Source of the DNA: Thermoplasmata archaeon
Lineage (GTDB): Archaea; Thermoplasmatota; Thermoplasmata; Thermoplasmatales; Thermoplasmataceae
Direction: 5' to 3'
Assembly: GCA_021820405.1 (NCBI GenBank)
Contig: JAKADQ010000001.1
Location: 2,783 to 66,782 of the forward strand
DNA: 64,000 nucleotides
The position numbers and the translations under genes are program-made. Under the pieces are notes generated by a model. The model saw only the letters and a program-made list of their open reading frames with translations, ran no database searches and was not told the origin of the DNA. Positions 6,189 through 18,769 of this stretch are shown one piece after another; the first letter of the stretch is position 1, and each line of letters opens with the position of its first letter.

Positions 6189-8882
6189 TTAGAGGGCAGC
6201 CACAGAAGAGACTCCTGACTCCTTTTTTACTTCGTAAACAATATCCGCTGCAGTCTCCAGTTCTTCGTGATGGGTGATTATAATGATCTGTGGGAATATA
6301 TTCTCATCACTCAGCTCTTTAATGGAATATTTGATTATATCCCTGAGGTCGTTTCTTCTTTCCTCGTCAAGATATACCGTTGGCTCGTCCATGATTATTG
6401 TGCTCATATCTCCACCAAGATACTTAGCAATTGCAAGCCTTATACCTATTGCCAGGGCGGTTCTCTCTCCTCCGCTTAGCTGGGATAGATCCTTAACAGA
6501 ACCATCCTGCATGATCTCAACATCAAGATCATCCGACAGTTTCACATCTTCAATGGCAAGATTGAATCTGGAAATTATGTTTCTTGCTTGAGCCGAAATG
6601 CTTTCCACGGCTATGCCCCTTAAAGCCTTAGGTATTCCGTCTCTGGAAATCCCCTTTCTCAACAGTGATAAAAAACTCAATATCTTTCTTGAAATTTCAG
6701 TTTCTTCAATATATTTCCCAATCTCATCCTTTTCTTTGCTTTTCTGTTCACGTTCCGTTCTCTTTGATGATATATCACTAAGAAGTCTTTCTTTCTCATT
6801 CTGTGTTATTTTAAGGGAATTATCAACTTCTTGGAATTCCTTTCTTAGCTTATCCTCTTCATTTATATACTCATCAAGTGTTTCAATCTCCTTTTTAATA
6901 TCCTGAATTTGTTTTTTAAGAATAGATATATTTTCCATCTTCCTTTCAATATCTATTATGGCTCCGCTATCCTGGACGTCTCTAGAAAGTTTTTCAACAT
7001 CCATCTCGATTTTGTCAATATCATGCTGATTTAGGCCTTTTTCAATCATTTCCATTAGATCAGGATATTTATCTATCAGACTTTTATTGTTTTCAATATC
7101 TTTCTCCTTTTCCTTTATTCTTTCATCAATTTTCATTTCTTCAAAAAGTTTGGTGTTTGCCTCCAAGTCAGAATACTTTTTATGGTCATCGGCCAAGGCG
7201 TCAATCTCATTCTTAACATCTTGGATTTTCTTCTGATCCATTTCATATTTATTCTTGCCCTCTTCATTCTGTTTCATCTTCAACATATACTCTTGTTCAC
7301 TGGCATCATGCTGCCCAATTGCCTCTACTAGATTGAGGTAATCGTTGATTTCACGAGATTCCAGTACGGATAATTCATCTTGTGTCTTCTTTATCTTCCT
7401 TTTTAGTGCATCTATATGATTCTGTATTCCTTCTATTTCTCTCTTTTTATCCTCAATTTCAGAGTTGAAACCATTAAAAATTTCCTCATGTTTGTGGCCC
7501 TCTATGTTCTGGCCACACAATGGGCAAATGGGTGCACTTTCAAGTTTTTCCATCTTCTCTTTTATTTCTAGCATCCTTTCACTATATGATTTAATTTTGC
7601 CCTCTTCTTCTGAAATTTTCCTCTGCATCTCCTCTTTAGTATCCCTCTTCTCTTTTCTTGTAAGTTCAACATAATCTCTGGTAACAATTTTTAAGTCAAT
7701 CCTATCTGATAATGCTTCCTTTATTTTTTCAAGTTTTCTAATTGCATCGGTTCTTCTATTTCTATTATCTTCATATAGGGAAAAATACTTTCTAAATTCC
7801 TCCCAATTCTTCTGGATTATTACTATTCCTTGCTCTAACTCTTCCAAATTTTTTTTAAGTTGGTTGTATCTAGTGTAATTTCCTTCTAAATCTTTCATTC
7901 TTTGAAGGGACTTGAAGTAATTGTCCCTGCTTTTCTTTAAATCATCAAGTTCCTTTCCAATTCTGTTGATTTGATCGATTTTGACAAGAAGATCCCTTAT
8001 TTCCCTTCTTTTGGAATATTTAATATCGTTTTTTAATTTCTCAAGTTCCATCATCTTTGCTTCGTATGCGATTTTCTGTTTTTCTAGAGCTTTAATATCT
8101 CTCTCTAAATTGTATATATCATTTGTTATTTTAGATATATCTTCATTTTTCTGAAGTCGAATTTGCTTTTTGTCCTCTATGGATTTAATTTTTCCAAATA
8201 ATTTATCCCTGTAGTTTCTTAATTCAACCAATTTTTCTTCTATGTCCTTTTCTTGGACGCTATTTTTTGCAATCTCATCTTCAAGTATTTGGATTGCCTG
8301 TGAGATCTCCTTGAACTGATCTCTTTTTTGTTCGTAATCTCTGGTTTCGCTTTCAAGATTTTTTATTATGGGATCAATATGCGATAGGGCTTTGTCATAA
8401 TCTTTCAATCCTATGATCTCACTTAAGATGTCCTTCCTGTCGGCAGGCCTTGATGTGATAAGGCCATCAATGTCACCCTGTTTTACATATACTGAATTGA
8501 TAAAGGCTAACTTCCCAATTTCCAATTCCCTTTCGACGGCCGCAGTAACCTCTGTTGCTCCTTCTCCAATTTTGGTGCCGTCCTTTATTATGAATGCTCG
8601 TTTTGTATTTTCTCTGCCCCTTCTGTTATCAATAACCCGTGTAATTTCATATGTATGCATGTTATGCCTGAATCTGACGGTCACAGATGACTCAGTCTCA
8701 TTATATGATATCATTCTCCTGTCAATATCGTTGTTTCCAAACAGGGCCATCCTCATGGCATCCACAATAGAAGACTTTCCCGCACCATTCTTTCCTATTA
8801 TTATATTGATTCCAGTTGAAAAACCGATCCTGGTATCCCTGTGGGACAGGAAGTTCCTCATGTGTATCTCTTCAATCAGCAT
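6189..8882 (-). CDS. rad50: DNA double-strand break repair ATPase Rad50
   Basis: GKNGAGKSS, long coiled coil with CPLC zinc hook, LSGGE, IIMDEPT; overlaps mre11. Confidence 0.97.
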   Translation of the reverse strand: MLIEEIHMRNFLSHRDTRIGFSTGINIIIGKNGAGKSSIVDAMRMALFGNNDIDRRMISYNETESSVTVRFRHNMHTYEITRVIDNRRGRENTKRAFIIKDGTKIGEGATEVTAAVERELEIGKLAFINSVYVKQGDIDGLITSRPADRKDILSEIIGLKDYDKALSHIDPIIKNLESETRDYEQKRDQFKEISQAIQILEDEIAKNSVQEKDIEEKLVELRNYRDKLFGKIKSIEDKKQIRLQKNEDISKITNDIYNLERDIKALEKQKIAYEAKMMELEKLKNDIKYSKRREIRDLLVKIDQINRIGKELDDLKKSRDNYFKSLQRMKDLEGNYTRYNQLKKNLEELEQGIVIIQKNWEEFRKYFSLYEDNRNRRTDAIRKLEKIKEALSDRIDLKIVTRDYVELTRKEKRDTKEEMQRKISEEEGKIKSYSERMLEIKEKMEKLESAPICPLCGQNIEGHKHEEIFNGFNSEIEDKKREIEGIQNHIDALKRKIKKTQDELSVLESREINDYLNLVEAIGQHDASEQEYMLKMKQNEEGKNKYEMDQKKIQDVKNEIDALADDHKKYSDLEANTKLFEEMKIDERIKEKEKDIENNKSLIDKYPDLMEMIEKGLNQHDIDKIEMDVEKLSRDVQDSGAIIDIERKMENISILKKQIQDIKKEIETLDEYINEEDKLRKEFQEVDNSLKITQNEKERLLSDISSKRTEREQKSKEKDEIGKYIEETEISRKILSFLSLLRKGISRDGIPKALRGIAVESISAQARNIISRFNLAIEDVKLSDDLDVEIMQDGSVKDLSQLSGGERTALAIGIRLAIAKYLGGDMSTIIMDEPTVYLDEERRNDLRDIIKYSIKELSDENIFPQIIIITHHEELETAADIVYEVKKESGVSSVAAL

Positions 8883-9984
8883 CAAAACCCTCCTTGGCTA
8901 ATTTTCTTATTCCCTCCTCAGAAAATTCCCCAGTCTTCAGTTGTTTGAATATTTCGTAGGCTATGTTCCCTTTTCGTTCGCTTCCAAAATATTTTATGAA
9001 GAGTTCGTTCTGTTTTCTCGATGATCCTATTTCTACAGTTTCCCTATTATTGGAGACTTCAAACCTTGGCGTTCTTATTATAAAATATTCTGAATACTCC
9101 TTTATCTTCCCCTTAAGGTATGCATTTTCAACCCCCTCTGTAAATGCCATACTGATCAGCGGTTTCTTTTCATAATTCTCCTTTGTGATCTGATCCAGTT
9201 TCCCAAATATTTCATCGGCATTACCCACCAGATCAAACTGCATCCTTGTACTTTTCAACCTTATTCTTTTTAATTTAGCCTCATCATCTATATCCACTAT
9301 GTTTACACCCTTCCCCTGCCTCAGCAATCCATGGATCTCCTTTGTTGCCTTTACCTCTGTCGATCCGGCATAGGAAAATACTGATCTGCCTATTTTTTCT
9401 TCACGGAACTGATGCACGTGGCCAAAGGCCATGTATGTAAAGTTTACAGGAAGGTCAGATTTCTTAGCTTCACACTGTTCCTCCGGAAAGAAAGGATCGA
9501 TCGCCTGATGGGAAACAAAAATGCATTTTTTCATTTTGGATGCTTCATCGTTAGCTTTCGCATAGATTTCCCTTAGAAGGTCAGACTGATAGAGTTTCAT
9601 ATTTCCAATGCCTGCGATATCCACATCATCCTTCCTTATGATCTCAAGGTTGTCCATTCCGATCATTCTAAGACCAAAAAAGTCAAAGATACCGTGAGCT
9701 GTAAGGTCTTTTCCTCTGGGCCTGTCATGATCTCCGGGTATGCATATCATTTCAATATGTTTCTCATATAATTTCAGCATATTTTCCTTCAGTACATTAA
9801 GGGCCCTGTTGGAAGGCCTGCTTGAATCAAAAAGGTCACCGGAATGTATTATGAAATCCACATTATTGTCAATGGCAATCTGTATTGCTTCAGCAAAGGC
9901 ATCATAGAAATCATTCTCCCGTTCCTCAATTCCATACTGTGAGGCTCCAAGATGAGTATCCGAAAGATGCATAAATCTGGCCAT
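8872..9984 (-). CDS. mre11: DNA repair nuclease Mre11
   Basis: HLSDTHLG, HSGDLFD, PGDHD, FGHVH, YAGS phosphoesterase motifs. Confidence 0.97.
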   Translation of the reverse strand: MARFMHLSDTHLGASQYGIEERENDFYDAFAEAIQIAIDNNVDFIIHSGDLFDSSRPSNRALNVLKENMLKLYEKHIEMICIPGDHDRPRGKDLTAHGIFDFFGLRMIGMDNLEIIRKDDVDIAGIGNMKLYQSDLLREIYAKANDEASKMKKCIFVSHQAIDPFFPEEQCEAKKSDLPVNFTYMAFGHVHQFREEKIGRSVFSYAGSTEVKATKEIHGLLRQGKGVNIVDIDDEAKLKRIRLKSTRMQFDLVGNADEIFGKLDQITKENYEKKPLISMAFTEGVENAYLKGKIKEYSEYFIIRTPRFEVSNNRETVEIGSSRKQNELFIKYFGSERKGNIAYEIFKQLKTGEFSEEGIRKLAKEGFDAD

Positions 9985-10033
9985 AATGCTTCACAACCTC
10001 AATGTTTCCCTTTGATTTTATATTTTTCCATTT

Positions 10034-11563
10034 CTAATCATCGAGCAATCCTCTGATAATCTTCCTGTTCTCCACAGGATTCAATCTTCTGTTTCTCTGC
10101 TCGAGGGACTCTCTTAATAAGTTAACAACATCAACATCCCCACCGCCCTCTCTGGTCTCCCTTTTTCTGATTTTAACTATTACAGGAAATCTTACGAATT
10201 CTCCAACCAGGACGGCTTCACCTGTATTCAATGAAGGAAGGTCATTTATAACACTGGCACTTACGCCTTCGCAGCTCTCTTCAATCGCCTTCTGATCCAT
10301 TGGATTTGTAATTCTCAAAATTATCTGGGAATTACACTGGCTCAGAACATCCTGATCGATCTTCCCTGGCCTCTGGGTGATCACCACCAAAAACATCCCA
10401 AATTTCCTACCTTCAGAGGCAATTTTTTTAATAAGATCTGGAAGTTTGCCTTTGTTTTCTCTGCCAACAAAATTATGGGCCTCTTCAATGAACACGAAGA
10501 CTGGATATCTGAAGGTTCCAGACACCTTTGCATCATAAATTTCATCAAGCACCCTAAGGCAAAAATAAGACATCACATCCTGATCAAGCCCTGATAGATC
10601 AAGGATGGACAGCTGCCCCTCCCTGAGATAGGTTTCAAGGGTTGTTGTGGTATTACCGAATATTCCCTTTATAGCCTTAAGCAGTGAGATTCTTCCAGAG
10701 ATCCTTCCTCTTTCATTCTTTTCTAAAGATTGGTATGATTTCAGAAAATCCTCCAGATCACCCTTGCCTCTGGTTCCTTCAAGGATCTTCCTGGTAATCT
10801 CCCGGAGCGTTGTCCATTCATCATCAATCCGCATTATATCGAAGAGATCATTTTCATCCAGATCCTGAAATCTGATAGTAAACTGCTCTGTCAGGGCATT
10901 CAGTTCTTTGCTGTATCTTCCTGTACTTAAGGGTGTTTTGAAGACCTTTGTGAAATCTCCAATCTCTCTTTCAGCTTTCATTAAGGCATAGTCTGCATGA
11001 GGGTCCAAAACAACAACAGTTGCACCTTTCCTGATTAACTCCTCTATCATTACGGCTGCAGTATTGCTTTTTCCAGCCCCTGTTTGAGCCATGATTGCAA
11101 CATGTCTGCGAAGACCATTGATGGATGCACCAACACCGACAGATCTGTAGTTTGATAGGGTCCCAAGAACTATGGAATCATTGTGGGAATATCCAAAAAG
11201 TGTCCTCATTTCATCCTCGGTCGATCTCCTGACAGGCTCTCCTGGCCTTATGAGAATTCTGTTTCCCTTTAATACTTCACCTTTTGAATTTATGGATCCA
11301 ACAGTTCTGCATACAGCAATATCAACACTCTTTGTTGAAATATTTTTGATCAATTCCTTAAGCCTTTCGTAAGTAATACTCTCCTGAATCATTTCATTGA
11401 AGGACTGCAGCCTCTCTACCCTTCCAATTATTTGAGAAGTACCAATAGTCAATGTTACATATTCCCATTTTTTAATCTCAATGGCAGGGTTCAGAACAAA
11501 CCTGAATACATCACTATCATTCTGTCCAGTTGTGAAACCAATGTTCTGTTCCACTTCATCCAT
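10034..11563 (-). CDS. herA: Bipolar DNA helicase HerA
   Basis: HAS-barrel-like N-terminus, AQTGAGKS, LDPHADY, IEEAHNF, EGRKFG, TQRP; upstream of mre11-rad50. Confidence 0.95.
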   Translation of the reverse strand: MDEVEQNIGFTTGQNDSDVFRFVLNPAIEIKKWEYVTLTIGTSQIIGRVERLQSFNEMIQESITYERLKELIKNISTKSVDIAVCRTVGSINSKGEVLKGNRILIRPGEPVRRSTEDEMRTLFGYSHNDSIVLGTLSNYRSVGVGASINGLRRHVAIMAQTGAGKSNTAAVMIEELIRKGATVVVLDPHADYALMKAEREIGDFTKVFKTPLSTGRYSKELNALTEQFTIRFQDLDENDLFDIMRIDDEWTTLREITRKILEGTRGKGDLEDFLKSYQSLEKNERGRISGRISLLKAIKGIFGNTTTTLETYLREGQLSILDLSGLDQDVMSYFCLRVLDEIYDAKVSGTFRYPVFVFIEEAHNFVGRENKGKLPDLIKKIASEGRKFGMFLVVITQRPGKIDQDVLSQCNSQIILRITNPMDQKAIEESCEGVSASVINDLPSLNTGEAVLVGEFVRFPVIVKIRKRETREGGGDVDVVNLLRESLEQRNRRLNPVENRKIIRGLLDD

Positions 11564-11674
11564 GAATAAGAGATTGGGAATACAGACTTAAACGCTTAGG
11601 TACACATTAGTTAATAAAAAAATCCTGCCATGGTGTATCAGTTATCGCTTTAAAAATTCACTCCATTTATTATA

Positions 11675-12475
11675 GGCTATCTTCTCCTTTGTTTTCGGTC
11701 TGTACGGATAACATAATCTTATCACTATTCCGTAGTATTCAGCAAAGTCCATGAATTTAGGATTGAATCTGGATTCTGATACCTTTATTTTCTAATCTAT
11801 TACGACCTGCTTAAGGTTGTCATATAGAATTATATCTGTGAATCCTCCAAAGAAGGAGAATGCGTTGAGATGCATTTTAATGACATTTTCTGTGAATATG
11901 TCGGTTGTGAATTCAACATAACGCATTCTTGAATAACCCAGTATCATGGAGAATGCGTAGATTTCTCTCCAATTCCATCAATATCTATGTATCCGAATTC
12001 ACCGAAATCCACCTGTGACTGTTTTCCAGGTTTAGTCTCATAGCGGTATACCGCCTGTATCCTGCGATCCTTTCGCAGTTCATGGCAGTAATCCTTCAGT
12101 ATTGTGTATTTGCCATCATATCCTAACTTTCTGATCTCTTCAAATCCTGACAACTGAAAGATTGTGCTCATCTATCAGTGAACGTATATTTTCTTTATAT
12201 GGATCAAGCTTTGATCCCCTGTGCCTTTTCTTTTTCTCCTGTATCCTTGTTTTTCTGAGCATCCTGCTTACTGTATTCCTCGATACACCGAGTTGTCTTG
12301 CTATCTCCCGGTTGCTCATTCCCATTTCTTTAAGATTCCTTATCATTCTCCTCACCTCCAGCCCGTACAATCATGATCCCCTTCCATATGAGGAAATGGA
12401 TCAAAATTAAACCGGCGATCTGGATCACTTTTATTCCGGCGAAAATGCACAAAAATCAACCGGAGATTGTGATCA
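11675..12475 (-). mobile_element. IS21-family remnant (frameshifted, truncated istA with intact left end)
   Basis: HTH N-terminus GMSNREIARQLGVSRNTV, RYETKPGKQSQVDFG, ILYDN, CYPYRPKTK across frames; end begins TG (CA at 12474-12475) with three 24-bp-period repeats (CCGG at 12412, 12436, 12460). Confidence 0.9.
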
Positions 12476-12721
12476 TGTACACTATCAAATGAGAATTCCC
12501 TTCATAATAACCTATCTACCGAGAAATGTAAGAATTAATTTGCTTCACTGATAATCATTACTGCTTTACCTAATAAAATTCAACTTGTTATAATGCTTTC
12601 TATCGCATTGTAGAATTCAGATGATCTAGTATTTTAAAGATTCATGGAGAATGACAATGGAGTAATGAAAAGGTTTTCGGTGATAGTTTTTGAAAATCTT
12701 CATTAGGTTAATTTTGAGATA

Positions 12722-12961
12722 TTACTTATTAACTTTATGTAAAAAAATATAAAGCCTGTTTGTTATAGCAAGGTAAATGCCATATATGGTGTATGCAATT
12801 AGTATGATGACAAATAAGATAGCACCATTCAAACTATTAAGATTTATCAAGACGGGTACATGACTGAAATGATTTACGGATAATATTACACCAGCTGCTT
12901 CATATACAAAGAAGACAAGACCTATGAGCATAAAAATAAAATGTACTATTCCTTTTCTCAT
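12722..12961 (-). CDS. Small two-TM membrane protein (79 aa), candidate immunity protein
   Basis: ATG 2 nt after the upstream stop; two hydrophobic helices with basic ends; function inferred. Confidence 0.65.
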   Translation of the reverse strand: MRKGIVHFIFMLIGLVFFVYEAAGVILSVNHFSHVPVLINLNSLNGAILFVIILIAYTIYGIYLAITNRLYIFLHKVNK

Positions 12962-12963
12962 TT

Positions 12964-13740
12964 TCAGTACCCCCAAGGAATATCGTACTCGGGAGCCGAT
13001 ATGAACCCTCCACCCCAATAAGACATGTCTATGTTAATCCCATTGAAGTCACCGTACGCATCCATAAACGTAATGTATGCCGCACCAAGAGCAAGAACGA
13101 GTGATACTATAGCCGCAACAAGACCTCCGACAACTGTTACTCCTACAATAGCGGCTATAAAAGCAGCTATGGCTGACCCAGCCGACATTAAAGCCGTGAG
13201 TTCTATAGTTTGTTGCTGGTTAAGAGGTATTGCAATTCCCAAAAAACCGTATGAAACACTCATTGGGTGTACATTGGGATATATTGGGTGTATTGTGCGG
13301 TATTCTTTATTTATTGTAAAAGTTATAGGCCCTCTCAGATTATTTGATATAATGGAATAAATAACCACATTCGTTGCTTCGCCATTATTTTTTATTAGTG
13401 TGAACAACGCAGAATGAACCACACCATTCACATACACGACCGTTCCAAGAGCATATTTATTAGCATTTGGTCCATTATATCTGATAGATTCTATGGAAAT
13501 CTTCTGTGCAGAAGTACCTATTACTTTCGTGTCTGAATAGGATTCTCTTAGTTCAAAGTAATTTGCAAACCTTATCATTCTTTCATTCATATTAACATTG
13601 TTGATACTTTTTGCGACAGATATCTCTGTATTTACTGGTTCCATTTGCTTCGCAAAGGGCACTCCTATAAACACAGAGGTTATGATCACTGCAATCACCG
13701 CTGTAGTTCCTAACAACTTCATTTTATTAGTCATTTCCAT
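12964..13740 (-). CDS. Secreted protein with Ala/Gly-rich hydrophobic C-terminal domain, candidate archaeocin precursor
   Basis: N-terminal signal/anchor, polar middle region, C-terminal AGSAIAAFIAAIVGVTVVGGLVAAIVSLVLALGAAY hairpin; AGGGGG RBS upstream. Confidence 0.7.
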   Translation of the reverse strand: MEMTNKMKLLGTTAVIAVIITSVFIGVPFAKQMEPVNTEISVAKSINNVNMNERMIRFANYFELRESYSDTKVIGTSAQKISIESIRYNGPNANKYALGTVVYVNGVVHSALFTLIKNNGEATNVVIYSIISNNLRGPITFTINKEYRTIHPIYPNVHPMSVSYGFLGIAIPLNQQQTIELTALMSAGSAIAAFIAAIVGVTVVGGLVAAIVSLVLALGAAYITFMDAYGDFNGINIDMSYWGGGFISAPEYDIPWGY

Positions 13741-13829
13741 TTACTTCCCCCTTTTTATCTAGTTAAATCAATATGTATATCGATAAATAATATTTAACCC
13801 TTATTGTAGTCTGGAGGTTAGGGTACTAT

Positions 13830-14700
13830 TCTATGACTGCCCACACTGAAAATATTGTGCCACACAGCGGTATAGCACAGAGCATTATCGATCATATAAT
13901 CCCTTCTCTTTGCCACGTTCTATCATAGCATATTCTTGTCTGCTACAAATCCTGATTTGAAATTTCTTCTCTGGTGTTATTGTTCCAGATGTGACATTTT
14001 ATCAGAATCAAACCCCTTCATCGTATCTTTCCATCTCTGTGATCCATTCAGATTAGCATCCTTCTTTGGTATTACAAAGACCTTTGTAACTCCAAGTTTA
14101 TCCACGTATAATGGGGATGAATAATACCTGTCAAGCCCGATAGAATTAATCTCCAACCCAAGGGCTGAGAAAAGGATCCATCGCCCTGTCATATGCCCGC
14201 TTTTCGAATCTTATGTATGACCCGAATGCTATGTAGAGCTAGGATTGCAGATACATTATGGCGAATGAATGTGCAAACAATCATTTCTTGTGACCCCTTG
14301 ATTCCTTTTGGTCCTCTCTTAATTCTGTATTTTGTTTAGCCCTATCCTTAAGATTATGTGCATGTGACTCATAGTTCTGCTTCGCTGTCACGGAATATCC
14401 AGTCCCATCGCCGCTGGCATCCGATCTTGTTATGCCTTTTCTCTTCATCATAAGCAAAAGCGGTACGTATTGCCATTATAACCTCATCATCTGAATATCA
14501 TATTTCCACGATCTTGTATGATGCATCTATTCCAGAAAGCATGCAGAAGACGGCAGGCATGTTTGCAAACATCCTGTTTGATTTGCCGACAAGCTGCTTT
14601 ATGAGAAGAAGCTTAACCCTTTGATCCAGCGACAGTGAATAAGGATGTCATGAACCATGTATAATCTGTATTATGGATAAAGATTCTGATGTGCTCCCTT
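13830..14700 (-). pseudogene. Degraded DDE transposase (ISNCY/ISA1214-like)
   Basis: Fragments RVKLLLIKQLVGKSNR, SGDGTGYS, LDRYYSSP...VIPKKDA, with many stops and frameshifts; boundaries approximate. Confidence 0.7.
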
Positions 14701-14704
14701 TGTC

Positions 14705-14855
14705 GTTTGGATGCTTATAAGATGGAAGGAAAGGTTTAGGAGAATCATAGAAAGGAAATGAATACCAGAAGGAGATTGATGATCTCAAGAGATTGGTGGG
14801 TGATCAGGCACTTGTTATTGATGTACATACCTATAAATGATTTTTAGGGAGGTTA
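14705..14855 (+). pseudogene. IS3-family orfA fragment
   Basis: Reads LIRWKERF and EYQKEIDDLKRLVGDQALVID (end of HTH plus leucine zipper). Confidence 0.6.
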
Positions 14856-14914
14856 AGGAGGGGATCGGTCTTCCGTTCTCACTATCCAGTCAACTGGAAG
14901 TTCCAAACTTTGTG

Positions 14915-16037
14915 AATATACCTGCCTGACAGATCATGATGGAAAGATTGTAGAAGAATATAAGATGCATAATACAGAGAAGAACTGGGCAGACTTCATG
15001 AAGAAGTATAACATAGATACAGAAATTTCAGTTGAAAAATCAACAGCCGGGAAATACGTAGCCCATCTGTTAAGAGATCATGGATTGCATGTGCACCTTG
15101 CAAATTCGAAGGAGTTAAAACTCATATGGAAGTCAAAGAAGAAAGACTGATAAAAATGATGTTAGGATTCTGGCAAGATTACTCCGCACAGGTGATCTTC
15201 TTGAATATTAACTTCCAGCAAAAGAGATAGAGGATATAGATAGAGGATATGATGACAATGATAAGATACAGAAGATCACTGGGTGAAGGCATAACTGCCA
15301 TAAAGAACAGGGTTCATGCGGTTCTGACACGCAATGGAATATCAATATCCTCATCAGATATCTTCGGCAGGCGATCCCTTCAGGTGATACTCGACTCTTC
15401 AAGGAATATGTCATTTGCAGATAATATTGTTCTTGCAGATCTCATATCACAATACAACGATATCAATGCACCTGTAAAGAATATGCAAAATCAGCTTGCA
15501 TCAACGGGAGAAGGGATTGAGAGTATTAAGATATTAATGACAGCACCGGGTATTGAATATTACACCGCTCTCGGTATATATTCTGAAATAGGAGACATAA
15601 CAAGATTTCCTGATGCTGAACACCTCTCATCATATACCGGTCTTGTTCCAAGGGTTGATCAGAGTGGAAACAGATCTGTATACGGGCATATAACAAAATC
15701 AGGCCCATCTGTATCGAGATTCTTCCTTGTGAGTCCGATGCATTCTCTGATCAAGCTGTCTCCATCATTCAAAAAAATATACAGAAAGATGAAGAAAAGG
15801 ATCGGAAAGAACAGGGCTATTATAGCAACAGCAAGGAAACTGGCAGTGATAATATTCAATATGCTTTCAAAGAATCAGCATTTCGTGGATGGTTGCATGT
15901 TTCAAAGGCTATATGAAAGAAAAATCAAGAACATGGAATCAAGTTCTAAAATGGCTCGTGAATTTCAACAGAAGGACACGGAAAAAATAATAGGGGAAGT
16001 TAACATGCGATCATCGTCAATAAAACTTCTTTCATGA
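14915..16037 (+). pseudogene. IS110-family transposase, inactivated
   Basis: VEKST, HLAN, KTDKNDVRILARLLR, TAPGI, EIGDITRF, SYTGLVPRVDQSG, ATARKL; frameshift near 15145, stop near 15209, 13-bp tandem duplication at 15225-15250. Confidence 0.9.
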
Positions 16038-16382
16038 CACCTTCATATATCCTTACAGCAGAGAGGTTATACTTGTCAATCCTCCCCCTTACATAATCGG
16101 TGTAAGGGGCAATGACAGACTGTCTCCCCTCTCTGCTGTATTTGGCAGGTTTCTGCATTGCGATATATTTCCTCACAGTTTTCCTGCTCACTCCAGTTCT
16201 CCTTGCTATCTCACTTATGCTCATTCCCTGTTCTTTCATAACCTTAAACATATGCCAATCCTCCGCTGTAATCGCATTTACCATCTCCAGAATGAAAATA
16301 CATGGGGCAGTAAATATTCAATGGCTCATTCTGGATACTTTTCAATGGCCAAAAAAGGGGTAAATTTGAATGGGCGATTACA
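16038..16382 (-). mobile_element. Second IS21-family remnant (left end plus istA N-terminus)
   Basis: GMSISEIARRTGVSRKTVRKY HTH; end TGTAATCGCCCATT at 16382 with three repeats (ATGG at 16321, 16345, 16370). Confidence 0.85.
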
Positions 16383-16788
16383 CTCTGATAGACTGCCTTT
16401 GCCGTCAACTGAATACTGGCATACTTTAGATGACGTCCTTACACAATACGTTATGCATAACGATAACAAGTTTGATTACGATAATGAAGGAATATCCCAT
16501 AGGAAACACATCATTGCTGATTGGATAAGATACATAGGCAAGGAAACCAATAATCTTGACGAAACACAGATTACTGGTATTGATTCAGATTCATACCTTG
16601 AGTATGATTACCTCAGGGAATTCTATGCATGGGTCTTGACATTGAAGCCTAAAGACGTTAAGGGCGAGAATATATCCGAAAGAGGATTAAGAAATATTAA
16701 ACAGAAAATCAGGAATGGAAGCGGATTAAAAAACAGATCAAAAATTATTAAAATCCTTTTTAAAAAATACTTAAATATGGATAATTAA
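16383..16788 (+). pseudogene. C-terminal fragment of a casposon-type family B DNA polymerase
   Basis: YWHTLDDVLTQYVMHNDNKF...GISHRKHI...IRYIGKETNNLDE followed by an HTH-like tail, as recalled for casposon PolB; cut off exactly at the IS21 end. Confidence 0.65.
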
Positions 16789-16812
16789 AATTCTTAAATT
16801 GAAAATTAAAAA

Positions 16813-16842
16813 CAGCACGTTTTTCGCTCTTATCTATATCCC
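16813..16842 (-). repeat. Putative casposon terminal inverted repeat (single end)
   Basis: Minus strand reads GGGATATAGATAAGAGCGAAAAACGTGCTG, starting 11 nt after the tRNA 3' end; partner end not found in the window. Confidence 0.6.
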
Positions 16843-16853
16843 AACATATAGAA

Positions 16854-16926
16854 TGGGCCTGGCCGGATTCGAACCGGCGATCTTCGCTGTGTGAGAGCGA
16901 CGTCATAACCACTGGACTACAAGCCC
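16854..16926 (-). tRNA. tRNA-Val(CAC)
   Basis: GGGCTTGTAGTCCAGTGGTTATGACGTCGCTCTCACACAGCGAAGATCGCCGGTTCGAATCCGGCCAGGCCCA; cloverleaf, anticodon stem TCGCT/AGCGA, loop CT-CAC-AC, no intron. Confidence 0.98.
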
Positions 16927-17128
16927 TCCATTGTAATTTTATTCAGGTTAAAAGTCTTTTAGATATGACATACCAAAAGGGAGGAAGGAGAGAGCAGAGA
17001 GTGAGCGATTTCATTTTTTAACGTATTTATCTTCAACATGCGATAGGCTGCATTCATATTCATTGTTTTTGTTCTTAAAGAAATTTACAAGAGCAAATCC
17101 TATTTATCATAACATACAATAATTGATC

Positions 17129-18769
17129 ATGAAGGACCAATTTGAAAAGATTTTTCGAGGGAAGGATTTAAATTATTATTCGGACGATCTACCATTGATC
17201 TCCTTTCTTTCATATCTCAAAATAGGAAATAAAAAGGGAATGGAGGAACTTGGAAAATATGTCTCTTCAGAGCTTATTGAAATAATGGATTTTGTCGATC
17301 ATAAGGGAAAGCCTGAATTGATCACATGGGATCTGGACGGCAAAAGGATTGATTATGTCAGGCTTTCTCCTGAACATAGAAAGGCTTTGGATAGATTGCA
17401 GCAACTCGGTGTTGTGAGAAAAAGTGCAAGCGGTGAGGATGACTGGTTATATCATTATATCAGTGGATATGTAATCTCAGACTCCGGAATATTCTGTACT
17501 CTGACACTGACAGCCCAAACTGCCTATGGGATAAAGAAATATGGGAATAGCTCAGAGATGAAGGAATTTTTAATTAAATATCTGGATGAAAAGGAGCCAT
17601 GGTACGGCGCAACCTATTACAGCGAGACTCAGGGAGGCAGTGATCTTGGGGCAAACAATACAATGGCGGTCAATGAGGATGGCAAATGGTATTTAACAGG
17701 TTCAGACAAATACTTTGCAAGCGATGCGGGTATCGCCGATGGTGCCATCGTTACTGCAAAGTATAAGGAAGGGGGAGTAAGATCATTGGCCCTGTTCTTT
17801 GTGCCATCAATTAACACAAAAGGAGGACTTAATTACCAGATCAGAAGATTGAAGAATAAGATGGGAACCATTGCTGTACCGAGTGGAGAAGTTGAGATGA
17901 ATAAATCCGAGGCTTATCTGATCGGAGAGAAGGAAAATGGAATCTATTACGCTATGGAAATTCTGACAGTATCAAGAATAGATGATGCCCTCGCTGCGGT
18001 AGGCATTGCCAGAAAGGCTCTATGGGAGGCATATCTTCATGCTGAGAGAAGGTCGTCCTTCGGTAAAAAACTGATCGAGCATCCATTGATGATCAGGGAT
18101 CTTACAACCATGGAGGTTGAACTAGAGGGTGCCACATTGATATCTCTTTATGCGGCTAAACTTTTCAATGATGTATACGATTCAAAACCACCTTACGATA
18201 ATAATTATAATTACGCAAGGTTCATTTCCCATATTGCAAAAAATATGGCAGCATGGACATCAGACCACATCACTCAATATTCAATGGAAATTTTTGGAGG
18301 AATCGGTTTCTTTGAGGAATTTCCTGTGGCAAAGTTTCACAGAGATGCTCTCGTCACATCCATATGGGAAGGAACAAGCAACATACAATCCTTAGACATG
18401 CTGGAAGCAATAATGAAGAAAAATGCAGCTGAAATGTTCTTCAATAAAATGGAAAAACTCATAGAAAATATAAAAGATAAAGAAGTAAAAGAGAAAATCA
18501 AAATAGCTCAAGAAAAAACCATAAGATACTTCGAAGATGCTATAAAATCTGGCTATGCAGAGTGCCATTCAAAGGAGCTTCTTAGAAAACTTGGAGAGTT
18601 TTGTGAGATCTGCCTTATGTATGATCTATATGAAAATAGCAAGAAGGATAGGGACCTCCATGTTGCAAATCTATTATTTACCACCCTATACAGAAAAGAT
18701 GAGGTAATTGAAACATCCCTATTCAAAATGGACATCATTGATTGGATGTCAAAGAAGCAATATTCCTAA
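17129..18769 (+). CDS. Acyl-CoA dehydrogenase (AidB-like)
   Basis: SETQGGSDLG, KYFAS, RRLKNKMGT, GGIGF, SIWEGTSNI. Confidence 0.9.
   Translation: MKDQFEKIFRGKDLNYYSDDLPLISFLSYLKIGNKKGMEELGKYVSSELIEIMDFVDHKGKPELITWDLDGKRIDYVRLSPEHRKALDRLQQLGVVRKSASGEDDWLYHYISGYVISDSGIFCTLTLTAQTAYGIKKYGNSSEMKEFLIKYLDEKEPWYGATYYSETQGGSDLGANNTMAVNEDGKWYLTGSDKYFASDAGIADGAIVTAKYKEGGVRSLALFFVPSINTKGGLNYQIRRLKNKMGTIAVPSGEVEMNKSEAYLIGEKENGIYYAMEILTVSRIDDALAAVGIARKALWEAYLHAERRSSFGKKLIEHPLMIRDLTTMEVELEGATLISLYAAKLFNDVYDSKPPYDNNYNYARFISHIAKNMAAWTSDHITQYSMEIFGGIGFFEEFPVAKFHRDALVTSIWEGTSNIQSLDMLEAIMKKNAAEMFFNKMEKLIENIKDKEVKEKIKIAQEKTIRYFEDAIKSGYAECHSKELLRKLGEFCEICLMYDLYENSKKDRDLHVANLLFTTLYRKDEVIETSLFKMDIIDWMSKKQYS

What the first reader, a model, noticed from the sequence alone, without database searches (positions are those of the whole stretch)
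16383..16926. Relic end of a casposon (Cas1-integrase self-synthesising transposon) docked at tRNA-Val
Seen: a gene tail (H-x-x-x-KF...RKHI...YIGKE-x-NNL-x-E plus HTH-like end) stops at 16788; 24 bp later is a segment reading GGGATATAGATAAGAGCGAAAAACG on the minus strand, starting exactly 11 nt after the tRNA 3' end. Established: Aciduliprofundum and Methanosarcina casposons carry PolB, have TIRs starting GGG(G)ATATA, and insert just past tRNA genes with 14-15 bp target duplications overlapping the last tRNA bases. CCA or CCCA plus TTCTATATGTT gives 14 or 15 bp here. Inference: this is one end of a casposon in a Thermoplasmatales-like host with a tRNA-Val target; cas1 and the other end are missing. 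The PolB and TIR likeness is from memory, not from an alignment.
Basis: partly seen in the sequence, partly recalled or inferred. Interest (0 to 1): 0.85.

Follow-up and report, generated by a model that had tools for sequence, protein, structure and literature searches.

The report
Casposon stump beside a tRNA-Val gene
This is the broken-off end of a casposon, an archaeal transposon whose integrase is related to the CRISPR spacer integrase, left beside a tRNA-Val gene and likely dead; such leftovers are a known kind, but they mark about a third of the related genomes searched, a spread that appears undescribed.

Summary
Confirmed. 16383-16788 is the last 134 codons of a family-2 casposon DNA polymerase B gene, cut exactly at an IS21 end. 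It is followed by a casposon terminal inverted repeat (TIR), a 14-bp target and tRNA-Val(CAC). One correction: the TIR starts 10, not 11, bases after the tRNA, with T for the usual G. No intact cas1, far end or second target copy was found in this 72.5%-complete genome, so it is a remnant, not a complete casposon. Fifteen genus relatives lack the TIR at this tRNA. The same genome holds a second, independent stump at tRNA-Pro. TIRs sit behind tRNAs in 54 of 169 genomes of the order, at Pro, Val, Ile and Met tRNAs; the polB 5' part survives in only 5. A 95%-identical end sits at tRNA-Met in another genus. Unexpected: in 12 of 15 resolvable sites the polB tail lies at the cargo end, with cas1 facing the tRNA, so this stump may be a polB-tail copy rather than the gene's own end. 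The scan reported similar casposon relics on other DNA. Known kind of relic, apparently unreported spread.

The parts
16383..16788 (+). 3' remnant of a family-2 casposon polB: last 134 codons (frame 16384-16785) plus TAA. Corresponds to the C-terminal region, including the terminal helical (HTH-like) part, of an ~880-aa PolB. Open frame; no catalytic motifs included.
   Evidence: BLASTP to G041 PolB 764-894, 34%, E 3e-21; 60% to G031 PolB 740-867; profile positions 758-879 of 884, 134 bits. The full-length relative folds as a family B polymerase. Pfam, NCBIfam and PHROGs give no significant hit for the fragment.
16789..16812 (.). Sub-terminal spacer between the polB stop and the TIR; shared with the closest relative at another tRNA.
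   Evidence: Alignment with G140:C69.
16813..16843 (-). Casposon terminal inverted repeat, TGGGATATAGATAAGAGCGAAAAACGTGCTG read inward from the tRNA side; first base T instead of the usual G.
   Evidence: 27/31 identical to the TIR of the intact G031 element and 10/12 to the G041 TIR start. First 18 positions of the majority consensus of 60 sites: GGGGATATAGATAAGACC.
16844..16857 (-). Single surviving copy of the 14-bp target (CCCA + 10 nt) that would have been duplicated on integration; overlaps the last 4 nt of the tRNA.
   Evidence: Same geometry as the duplicated CCCATTAATTATTT on both sides of the G031 element. No second copy in the upstream island or next to any TIR in G000.
16866..16872 (-). 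T-loop motif TCGAATC, 8 bp upstream of the target; counterpart of the TCAAATC motif required by the A. boonei casposase.
   Evidence: PMC6614799 passages. TCGAATC precedes 20 and TCAAATC 38 of 71 sites.
16854..16926 (-). tRNA-Val(CAC), intact host target gene.
   Evidence: ARAGORN.
16000..16382 (-). IS21-family left end (starts TGT at 16382) with a 94-codon istA 5' fragment; abuts and truncates the polB remnant.
   Evidence: NF033546 IS21 transposase, E 6.8e-14. A paralog on C86 shares the end. In other runs IS21 contigs stop at 16382 while polB contigs continue with polB sequence before 16383.

Best explanation
The region is the tRNA-side end of a family-2 casposon (TIR plus the last 134 polB codons) next to tRNA-Val(CAC), cut off by an IS21 element and likely inactive. 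Inferred history: a Cas1-solo integrase (casposase) recognised the tRNA T-loop motif TCGAATC and the CC 8 bp downstream, cut the two strands 14 bp apart, and joined the element ends there, duplicating CCCATTCTATATGT and leaving the tRNA intact. An IS21 element later landed in the polB sequence, and IS-driven or other deletion removed cas1, the other genes, the far TIR and the second target copy. The proximal stump survives because deletions cannot run into the tRNA gene. Shown: the sequences, their homologies, the boundary geometry, the IS21 junction, the empty sites in relatives. Inferred: the integration chemistry (from A. boonei biochemistry), the order of events, inactivity. Open: whether the polB piece is the gene's own end (about 0.5) or a tail copy at the cargo end (about 0.45; first rival).
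For: PolB homology; the full-length relative has DTETT, DFTSMYP and YCDTDS motifs and a family B fold, pLDDT 86. Intact relative G031: tRNA-Val(TAC), TIRs at both ends, 14-bp duplication, polB, HNH, two HTH genes, Cas1 (PF01867, E 2.5e-57), restriction cargo. G041 element matches the published AciBoo-C1 duplication and TIRs. TIR-only search: 41 of 48 hits directly behind CCCA-ending tRNA-type 3' ends, 6 far or tandem ends with the reversed target, 1 unexplained, control 0 (counted by eye). 0 of 15 genus relatives carry GGGATATA behind tRNA-Val(CAC). A second stump with PolB 588-864 sits at tRNA-Pro(TGG) in the same genome and on a different branch of the tail tree. dN 0.18-0.30 against dS above 1.5 versus eight relatives shows past purifying selection. 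Versus G140 there are 6 synonymous and 7 non-synonymous changes in 109 codons; three (A>S, R>W, N>Y) hit residues conserved in most relatives, as expected of recent relaxation.
Against: No second target copy or far TIR, so the duplication at this site cannot be shown. No Cas1 Pfam hit in G000, which is only 72.5% complete. The frame is still open, so inactivity is not proven. Pfam and NCBIfam do not recognise even the full-length PolB; PHROGs gives only E 2.7e-4, so the PolB label rests on motifs, a profile search and a predicted fold. TCGAATC differs at one position from the motif tested in vitro. No strain with the intact element at this exact site was found.
Confidence: 0.93

Rival explanations
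1. Variant of the best explanation: the stump is the element's cargo end, which in this clade often carries a copy of the polB 3' end next to the TIR (a long, imperfect inverted repeat), so the element lay with cas1 facing the tRNA and the tail was never a whole gene at this place.
For: Of 15 tRNA-TIR sites where both a polB tail and Cas1 are visible, 12 read tRNA-TIR-polB tail-cargo-cas1 with cas1 facing the tRNA; the 3 with cas1 facing away are the near-complete elements. Cargo ORFs often start at the cas1 stop and end within about 10-90 bp of the tail, and my TIR scan found no inner TIR. Metagenome contigs L241 and L244 begin and end in inverted polB tails 96-98% identical. G002 and G059 carry polB ends at both sides of one target duplication, 81% identical. 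In the closest relative (G140, 95% identical) a methyltransferase cargo gene abuts the tail.
Against: The window's piece is about 25 codons longer than G140's and ends at an IS21 junction, not at cargo. True polB-end relics that lost cas1 are invisible to the 12-versus-3 count, which biases it. Stacked head-to-head insertions followed by deletion give the same layout; such stacks are seen directly (L242, L226). L241 and L244 are contig ends and could be assembly effects.
Confidence: 0.45
2. One-ended integration: only one casposon end was joined at the tRNA and the half-site was repaired, so a full element never lay here.
For: No far TIR, second target copy or core gene in the island between HerA and the tRNA. 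TIRs at tRNAs are about ten times more widespread than polB 5' parts (54 versus 5 of 169 genomes). Single-end products occur in vitro (PMC6977970 passages).
Against: The break is explained by an IS21 end at base resolution. Remnants by decay of full elements are documented in M. mazei (PMC4779613). Metagenome-assembled genomes often break at such elements.
Confidence: 0.06
3. The open polB tail is kept as a small functional protein, for example an HTH-type repressor giving immunity to incoming casposons.
For: The frame is open and includes the C-terminal helical part; polB and cas1 relics in relatives both tend to keep their C-termini. An internal ATG could give a peptide of about 110 aa.
Against: Many tails in relatives carry stops or frameshifts and their lengths range from about 50 to 500 codons. 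C-terminal retention follows from gene orientation toward the tRNA. The window copy has changes at conserved residues. No expression data were examined.
Confidence: 0.04
4. The motif is ordinary tRNA trailer sequence or chance, and the fragment came with another kind of integrative element or is an assembly chimera.
For: tRNA 3' ends are hot spots for many elements; in G002 an integrase-like ORF follows tRNA-Val(CAC) (judged by eye, not annotated). One genus relative (G014) has GGGTATAAG at a similar distance.
Against: motif confined to casposon ends, controls 0; junctions bridged.
Confidence: 0.02

Closest known systems
AciBoo-C1, family-2 casposon of Aciduliprofundum boonei (Krupovic 2014 PMC4046053; Beguin 2016 PMC5137440; Beguin 2019 PMC6614799)
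   Same: tRNA 3'-end target with a T-loop motif 8 bp before CC; 14-15-bp target of tRNA end plus 10 nt; TIR beginning (G/T)GGGATATA; homologous PolB C-terminus pointing at the tRNA-side TIR.
   Different: Only 0.46 kb is left; no cas1, HNH, HTH genes, cargo or far end. Target is tRNA-Val(CAC) with TCGAATC, not tRNA-Pro with TCAAATC. TIR diverges after about 12 bp. PolB tail only 34% identical.
Solo TIRs, partial and tandem family-2 casposons of Methanosarcina (Krupovic 2016 PMC4779613)
   Same: Remnants that outnumber complete elements; repeated use of tRNA 3' ends; both orientations; 14-bp duplications.
   Different: There the conserved target start is CGCA and the tRNA is Leu. Here it is CCCA and tRNAs Pro, Val, Ile and Met(CAT), in another archaeal order. 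PolB tails at the cargo end are not mentioned in the passages I read.
Intact unnamed relative G031:C41 (same family as the host)
   Same: tRNA-Val target (TAC), TIR 27/31 identical, PolB tail 60-62% identical.
   Different: Complete, about 11.8 kb, with cas1, HNH, HTH genes, Mrr and Eco57I-like cargo, both TIRs and the duplication.

Membership tests
Complete family-2 casposon | Stand-alone cas1 (casposase) with C-terminal HTH | tested here: not met
   No PF01867 match in G000 (genome 72.5% complete); only two 45-50-codon cas1 tails on other contigs. Present in relatives G031 and G041.
Complete family-2 casposon | Full-length family B polymerase | tested here: not met
   Only the last 134 codons; the polB 5' profile finds nothing in G000.
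Complete family-2 casposon | HNH nuclease and two HTH genes | tested here: not met
   tblastn with these proteins from G031, G041 and G002 finds no hit in G000 at E 0.05.
Complete family-2 casposon | TIRs at both ends flanked by a target site duplication | tested here: not met
   One TIR and one target copy only.
Complete family-2 casposon | Cas1-dependent integration activity | not testable with these tools
   Needs biochemistry; shown for A. boonei and M. mazei in the papers read.
Remnant of a family-2 casposon (solo-TIR or partial element, Krupovic 2016) | End sequence homologous to the TIR of an intact casposon | tested here: met
   27/31 identity to the G031 TIR; G031 has both TIRs, the duplication and cas1.
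Remnant of a family-2 casposon (solo-TIR or partial element, Krupovic 2016) | Located at a casposase-type target: T-loop motif, 8 bp, CC, 14-bp target, then TIR | tested here: met
   one base of the T-loop motif differs from the tested TCAAATC.
Remnant of a family-2 casposon (solo-TIR or partial element, Krupovic 2016) | Residual gene sequence from the family-2 core | tested here: met
   PolB C-terminus; nests among Thermoplasmata casposon PolB tails, with weak deep support in a 134-column tree.
Remnant of a family-2 casposon (solo-TIR or partial element, Krupovic 2016) | Orthologous site empty in relatives | tested here: met
   0 of 15 genus genomes with recovered tRNA-Val(CAC) have the TIR; in the 16th the tRNA was not recovered.
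Tyrosine- or serine-integrase island at a tRNA | Integrase gene and a direct repeat of the tRNA 3' end | tested here: inconclusive
   No integrase among the ten island ORFs scanned with Pfam and no repeat of the tRNA 3' end in blastn of 15001-17200 against G000 within this island; the island is heavily eroded.

The most novel reading that the evidence does not exclude
The stump belongs to an apparently undescribed, recently mobile clade of family-2 casposons that has colonised a third of the genomes of this archaeal order, hops between all tRNA genes ending in CCCA (Pro, Val, Ile, Met-CAT, also Trp), and repeatedly copies the 3' end of its own polB onto the cargo end. These long inverted repeats would be footprints of copy-back (template-switch) synthesis at the paired ends during self-replication. 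Decay then leaves the cargo, mostly restriction-modification genes, as tRNA-anchored defence islands.
Probability: 0.35. Interest if true: 0.62.

Novelty: new member of a known kind. Interest (0 to 1): 0.42.

Why it matters
The stump itself is an ordinary relic. Its value is as a marker. Casposons are described as rare, and in this lineage I found only A. boonei in print, yet their ends stand behind tRNAs in 54 of 169 genomes. About 70 natural insertions give an in vivo read-out of the casposase target rule worked out in vitro: the 10-nt spacing is fixed, TCGAATC and CCAAATC are used as well as TCAAATC, and a terminal T is tolerated. A 95%-identical end at two different tRNAs in two genera shows recent transfer and target switching. 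How casposons replicate and excise is still open; if the polB tails at cargo ends are copy-back products they make that question testable. Intact elements (G031 and several metagenome contigs) offer new casposases for biochemistry.

Tried and rejected
Pfam, NCBIfam and PHROGs scans of the fragment gave nothing significant; a single-sequence PDB search with the full PolB gave no polymerase. A fold without alignment failed (pLDDT 31) and was repeated with 28 sequences. Idea that the 10-nt target spacer travels with the element: the two closest pairs at different tRNAs share 7/10 and 8/10 bases, but over 2243 different-tRNA pairs there is no link between TIR similarity and spacer similarity (rho 0.02, permutation p 0.33); not supported. 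Idea that all polB tails descend from one chimeric element: tails are scattered among full-length PolBs in the tree (short alignment, 21 of 43 inner branches open); not supported. The GGGGGATATAG on C86 lies inside the IS21 paralog and is not a casposon end. Search for the far TIR or second target copy in window 11401-16383 with up to 3 mismatches: no convincing hit. Rows dropped: L066 (host trailer caught by my loose script pattern) was removed before the count of 71; L090 was mis-keyed onto L147's sequence, so the class 'no tail, cas1 toward tRNA' is 5, not 6; 36 of the 71 sites have under 6 kb of contig and cannot be resolved. Literature: six full-text searches found no paper describing casposons of this order other than A. 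boonei, and none on polB tails in TIRs; subscription journals are not covered. Seen: search listings; passages of PMC5137440, PMC6614799, PMC4046053 (plus supplement passages), PMC6977970, PMC10359463, PMC10354927, PMC12302457; parts 1-2 of 6 and passages of PMC4779613. Supplements of the other papers were not read and could list further elements.

Full report
Observation. The window is G000:C128:2783-66782, from a 1.35-Mb, 72.5%-complete assembly. ARAGORN finds tRNA-Val(CAC) at 16854-16926 on the minus strand. Behind its last bases CCCA come 10 nt (TTCTATATGT) and then TGGGATATAGATAAGAGCGAAAAACGTGCTG (16843-16813); 24 bp further a + strand frame ends at TAA 16786-16788. The 14-mer GGGATATAGATAAG occurs twice in the genome: here and behind tRNA-Pro(TGG) on contig C52.

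The protein fragment. Family libraries do not recognise it. A search of 61 related genomes found matches in 27. One of them, G041, is a 9,076-bp element with cas1 (PF01867, E 5e-63), HNH-like and HTH genes and an 899-aa protein. Its flanking duplication CCCCACTACGAGGAG and its TIRs equal those published for AciBoo-C1 of Aciduliprofundum boonei. The window fragment aligns to residues 764-894 of that protein (34%, E 3e-21). A closer full-length homolog (G031, 883 aa, 60% over the tail) has the DTETT, DFTSMYP and YCDTDS motifs. A profile of 28 full-length homologs hits solved family B polymerases (best E 1.5e-5) and scores the window tail at 134 bits, positions 758-879 of 884. The predicted structure of the G031 protein (pLDDT 86) matches family B polymerases such as phi29, RB69 and Pol alpha (best E 6e-14). 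Krupovic 2014 states that family-2 PolBs end in an HTH similar to that of their Cas1 (passage), which fits the helical end of the model. So the fragment is the last 134 codons of casposon polB.

The left break. The fragment begins at 16383, where an IS21-family end (TGT at 16382, minus strand; istA fragment E 6.8e-14) abuts it. A paralogous IS end on C86 stops at the same base. In another run five contigs continue before 16383 with polB sequence, while IS21 contigs end at 16382. Contigs with no differences bridge both this junction and the TIR-tRNA junction in four runs of one study, possibly the source sample and so not independent. The rest of the island up to herA (11563) holds IS21 and IS110 pieces and no casposon gene, far TIR or second target copy. 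The herA-tRNA interval is 5.3 kb here, 9.8 kb in G013 and 3.2 kb in G007.

The TIR and target. G031 carries an intact element at tRNA-Val(TAC): TIRs at both ends, CCCATTAATTATTT duplicated, polB, HNH, HTH genes, Cas1 (E 2.5e-57), Mrr and Eco57I-like cargo. The window TIR is 27/31 identical to it. In 71 tRNA-linked sites collected from relatives, base 11 after CCCA starts GGGG in 62 and TGGG in 4. The element therefore starts at 16843 with T and the target is 14 bp. Beguin 2019 reports that the casposase needs TCAAATC 8 bp upstream and CC at the start of the target, and cites that the terminal C of the TIR can be replaced by A (passages); a 5' T is that variant. The window has TCGAATC at the same spacing, as do 20 of the 71 sites. 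All 15 genus relatives with a recovered tRNA-Val(CAC) lack GGGATATA there; one has GGGTATAAG at a similar distance.

Other relics in this genome. C52 has tRNA-Pro(TGG), 10 nt, GGGGATATAGATAAGACC and PolB residues 588-864. It is 73% identical in protein but nearly saturated at synonymous sites (dS 1.6) and lies on another branch: a separate invasion. C17 and C50 each have a 45-50-codon cas1 tail directly followed by a DNA methyltransferase. No intact cas1 was found.

Spread. A tRNA-end-plus-TIR pattern hits 54 of 169 genomes of the order (21 of 74 high-quality ones; 23 of 37 genera; control 0). The polB 5' part is found in 5 of 169. A TIR-only pattern gives 48 hits: 41 behind CCCA-ending tRNA-type ends, 6 far or tandem ends with the reversed target, 1 unexplained. 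Targets among the 71 sites are Pro 33, Val 23, Ile 7, Met(CAT) 3, unassigned 5, and Trp once outside that set; these are the tRNA classes ending in CCCA in G000, where 2 of 8 pattern-matching tRNAs are occupied. The closest relative of the window stump is in another genus (G140): 95% identical over 380 bp, but at tRNA-Met(CAT) (tree support 100/100). That points to recent transfer and a change of target. The named records closest to this polB are titled Thermoplasmata, Thermoplasmatota, Cuniculiplasmataceae and Aciduliprofundum, with one titled Woesearchaeota, and the best runs are mine-drainage metagenomes, so a Thermoplasmatales host is inferred. Kin are not independent and most genomes are incomplete assemblies, so these are counts, not rates.

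An unexpected layout. In intact elements polB points to one TIR and cas1 plus cargo to the other. Among the 71 sites, 39 have a polB tail; where Cas1 is also visible (15 sites) it faces the tRNA in 12 and away in 3, the near-complete elements. In the 12, cargo lies between cas1 and the tail, often bounded closely on both sides, and no inner TIR was detected. Of 34 cargo regions examined, 18 have a DNA methyltransferase or restriction domain; others hold FkbM or TylF methyltransferases, beta-propeller proteins or thermopsin. Two metagenome contigs begin and end in inverted polB tails 96-98% identical; G002 and G059 have polB ends on both sides of one duplication at 81% identity. This can arise from copying of the polB end onto the cargo end, or from stacked head-to-head insertions and deletion; real stacks exist (L242, L226). 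The IS21 cut hides which case applies to the window. G140's cargo-abutting tail favours a cargo end; the window's 25 extra codons favour the gene's own end.

Mechanism and status. Most likely a casposase inserted the element at the tRNA end with a 14-bp duplication, an IS21 then hit the polB sequence, and deletion removed the distal part. The chemistry is inferred from A. boonei and M. mazei work; the order of events and inactivity are inferred. It fails the membership test for a complete casposon and passes that for a remnant. Remnants, tandem insertions and both orientations are described for Methanosarcina (PMC4779613), and this scan noted similar relics elsewhere. Six literature searches found no account of this clade's spread, its tRNA range or the polB-tail ends; subscription journals and unread supplements could hold one. 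Verdict: real, correctly interpreted, a new member of a known kind; interest 0.42, carried by the census and the polB-tail layout rather than by the stump.

Noticed in passing
G000:C52:1032-2183 (L001): Second, independent casposon stump in the same genome: PolB residues 588-864, TIR GGGGATATAGATAAGACC, tRNA-Pro(TGG); a transporter-like gene lies directly upstream.
   Followed up: yes
G000:C17:55687-59673 and G000:C50:8698-10054 (L211, L210): Two cas1 C-terminal tails, each followed by an N6/N4 DNA methyltransferase; no tRNA or TIR seen nearby. Probably cargo left by further casposons.
   Followed up: partly
window 11792-12449: Second IS21 fragment (frameshifted istA pieces), same orientation as the one at 16382; its left end is inferred at 12449.
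   Followed up: partly
window 14965-16037: Broken IS110-family transposase gene (Transposase_20 E 1e-18; NF033542 E 5e-42) abutting the IS21 piece.
   Followed up: partly
window 13936-14640: Further short ORFs that look like pieces of another transposase; no Pfam hit for the two pieces tested.
   Followed up: no
window 12722-13740: A 258-aa protein with a hydrophobic N-terminus plus a small membrane ORF, both on the minus strand; a similarly built pair lies next to IS21 pieces on C86. No strong Pfam hit.
   Followed up: no
window 6189-11563: herA, mre11-like and rad50-like genes (by sequence appearance) border the island; herA and mre11 lie at the same side of tRNA-Val(CAC) in G013 and G007.
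   Followed up: partly
L035:7847-17044 (G002:C8): Element at tRNA-Ile with two different TIR types, frameshifted full polB at the far end, polB tail at the tRNA end, and a further TIR after the second target copy (a stack).
   Followed up: partly
L177:231-300 and L186: A 30-bp tandem duplication inside the TIR, shared by G140 (tRNA-Met) and G160 (tRNA-Pro).
   Followed up: no
L147, L155, L192: Casposons carrying large thermopsin-domain proteins as cargo; others (L150, L168, L169) carry beta-propeller proteins.
   Followed up: no
L309, L311, L312, L329, L330, L264: Related casposons in records titled Micrarchaeota, Aenigmatarchaeota and Nanoarchaeota, at tRNA-Pro, -Arg or -Glu; some with TGGGATATAGAT TIRs. 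Possible exchange between small archaea and Thermoplasmatales.
   Followed up: no
G022:C1 (L036-L041, L180-L182): One closed genome with at least eight casposon ends at different tRNAs, including Trp, and no polB 5' part.
   Followed up: partly
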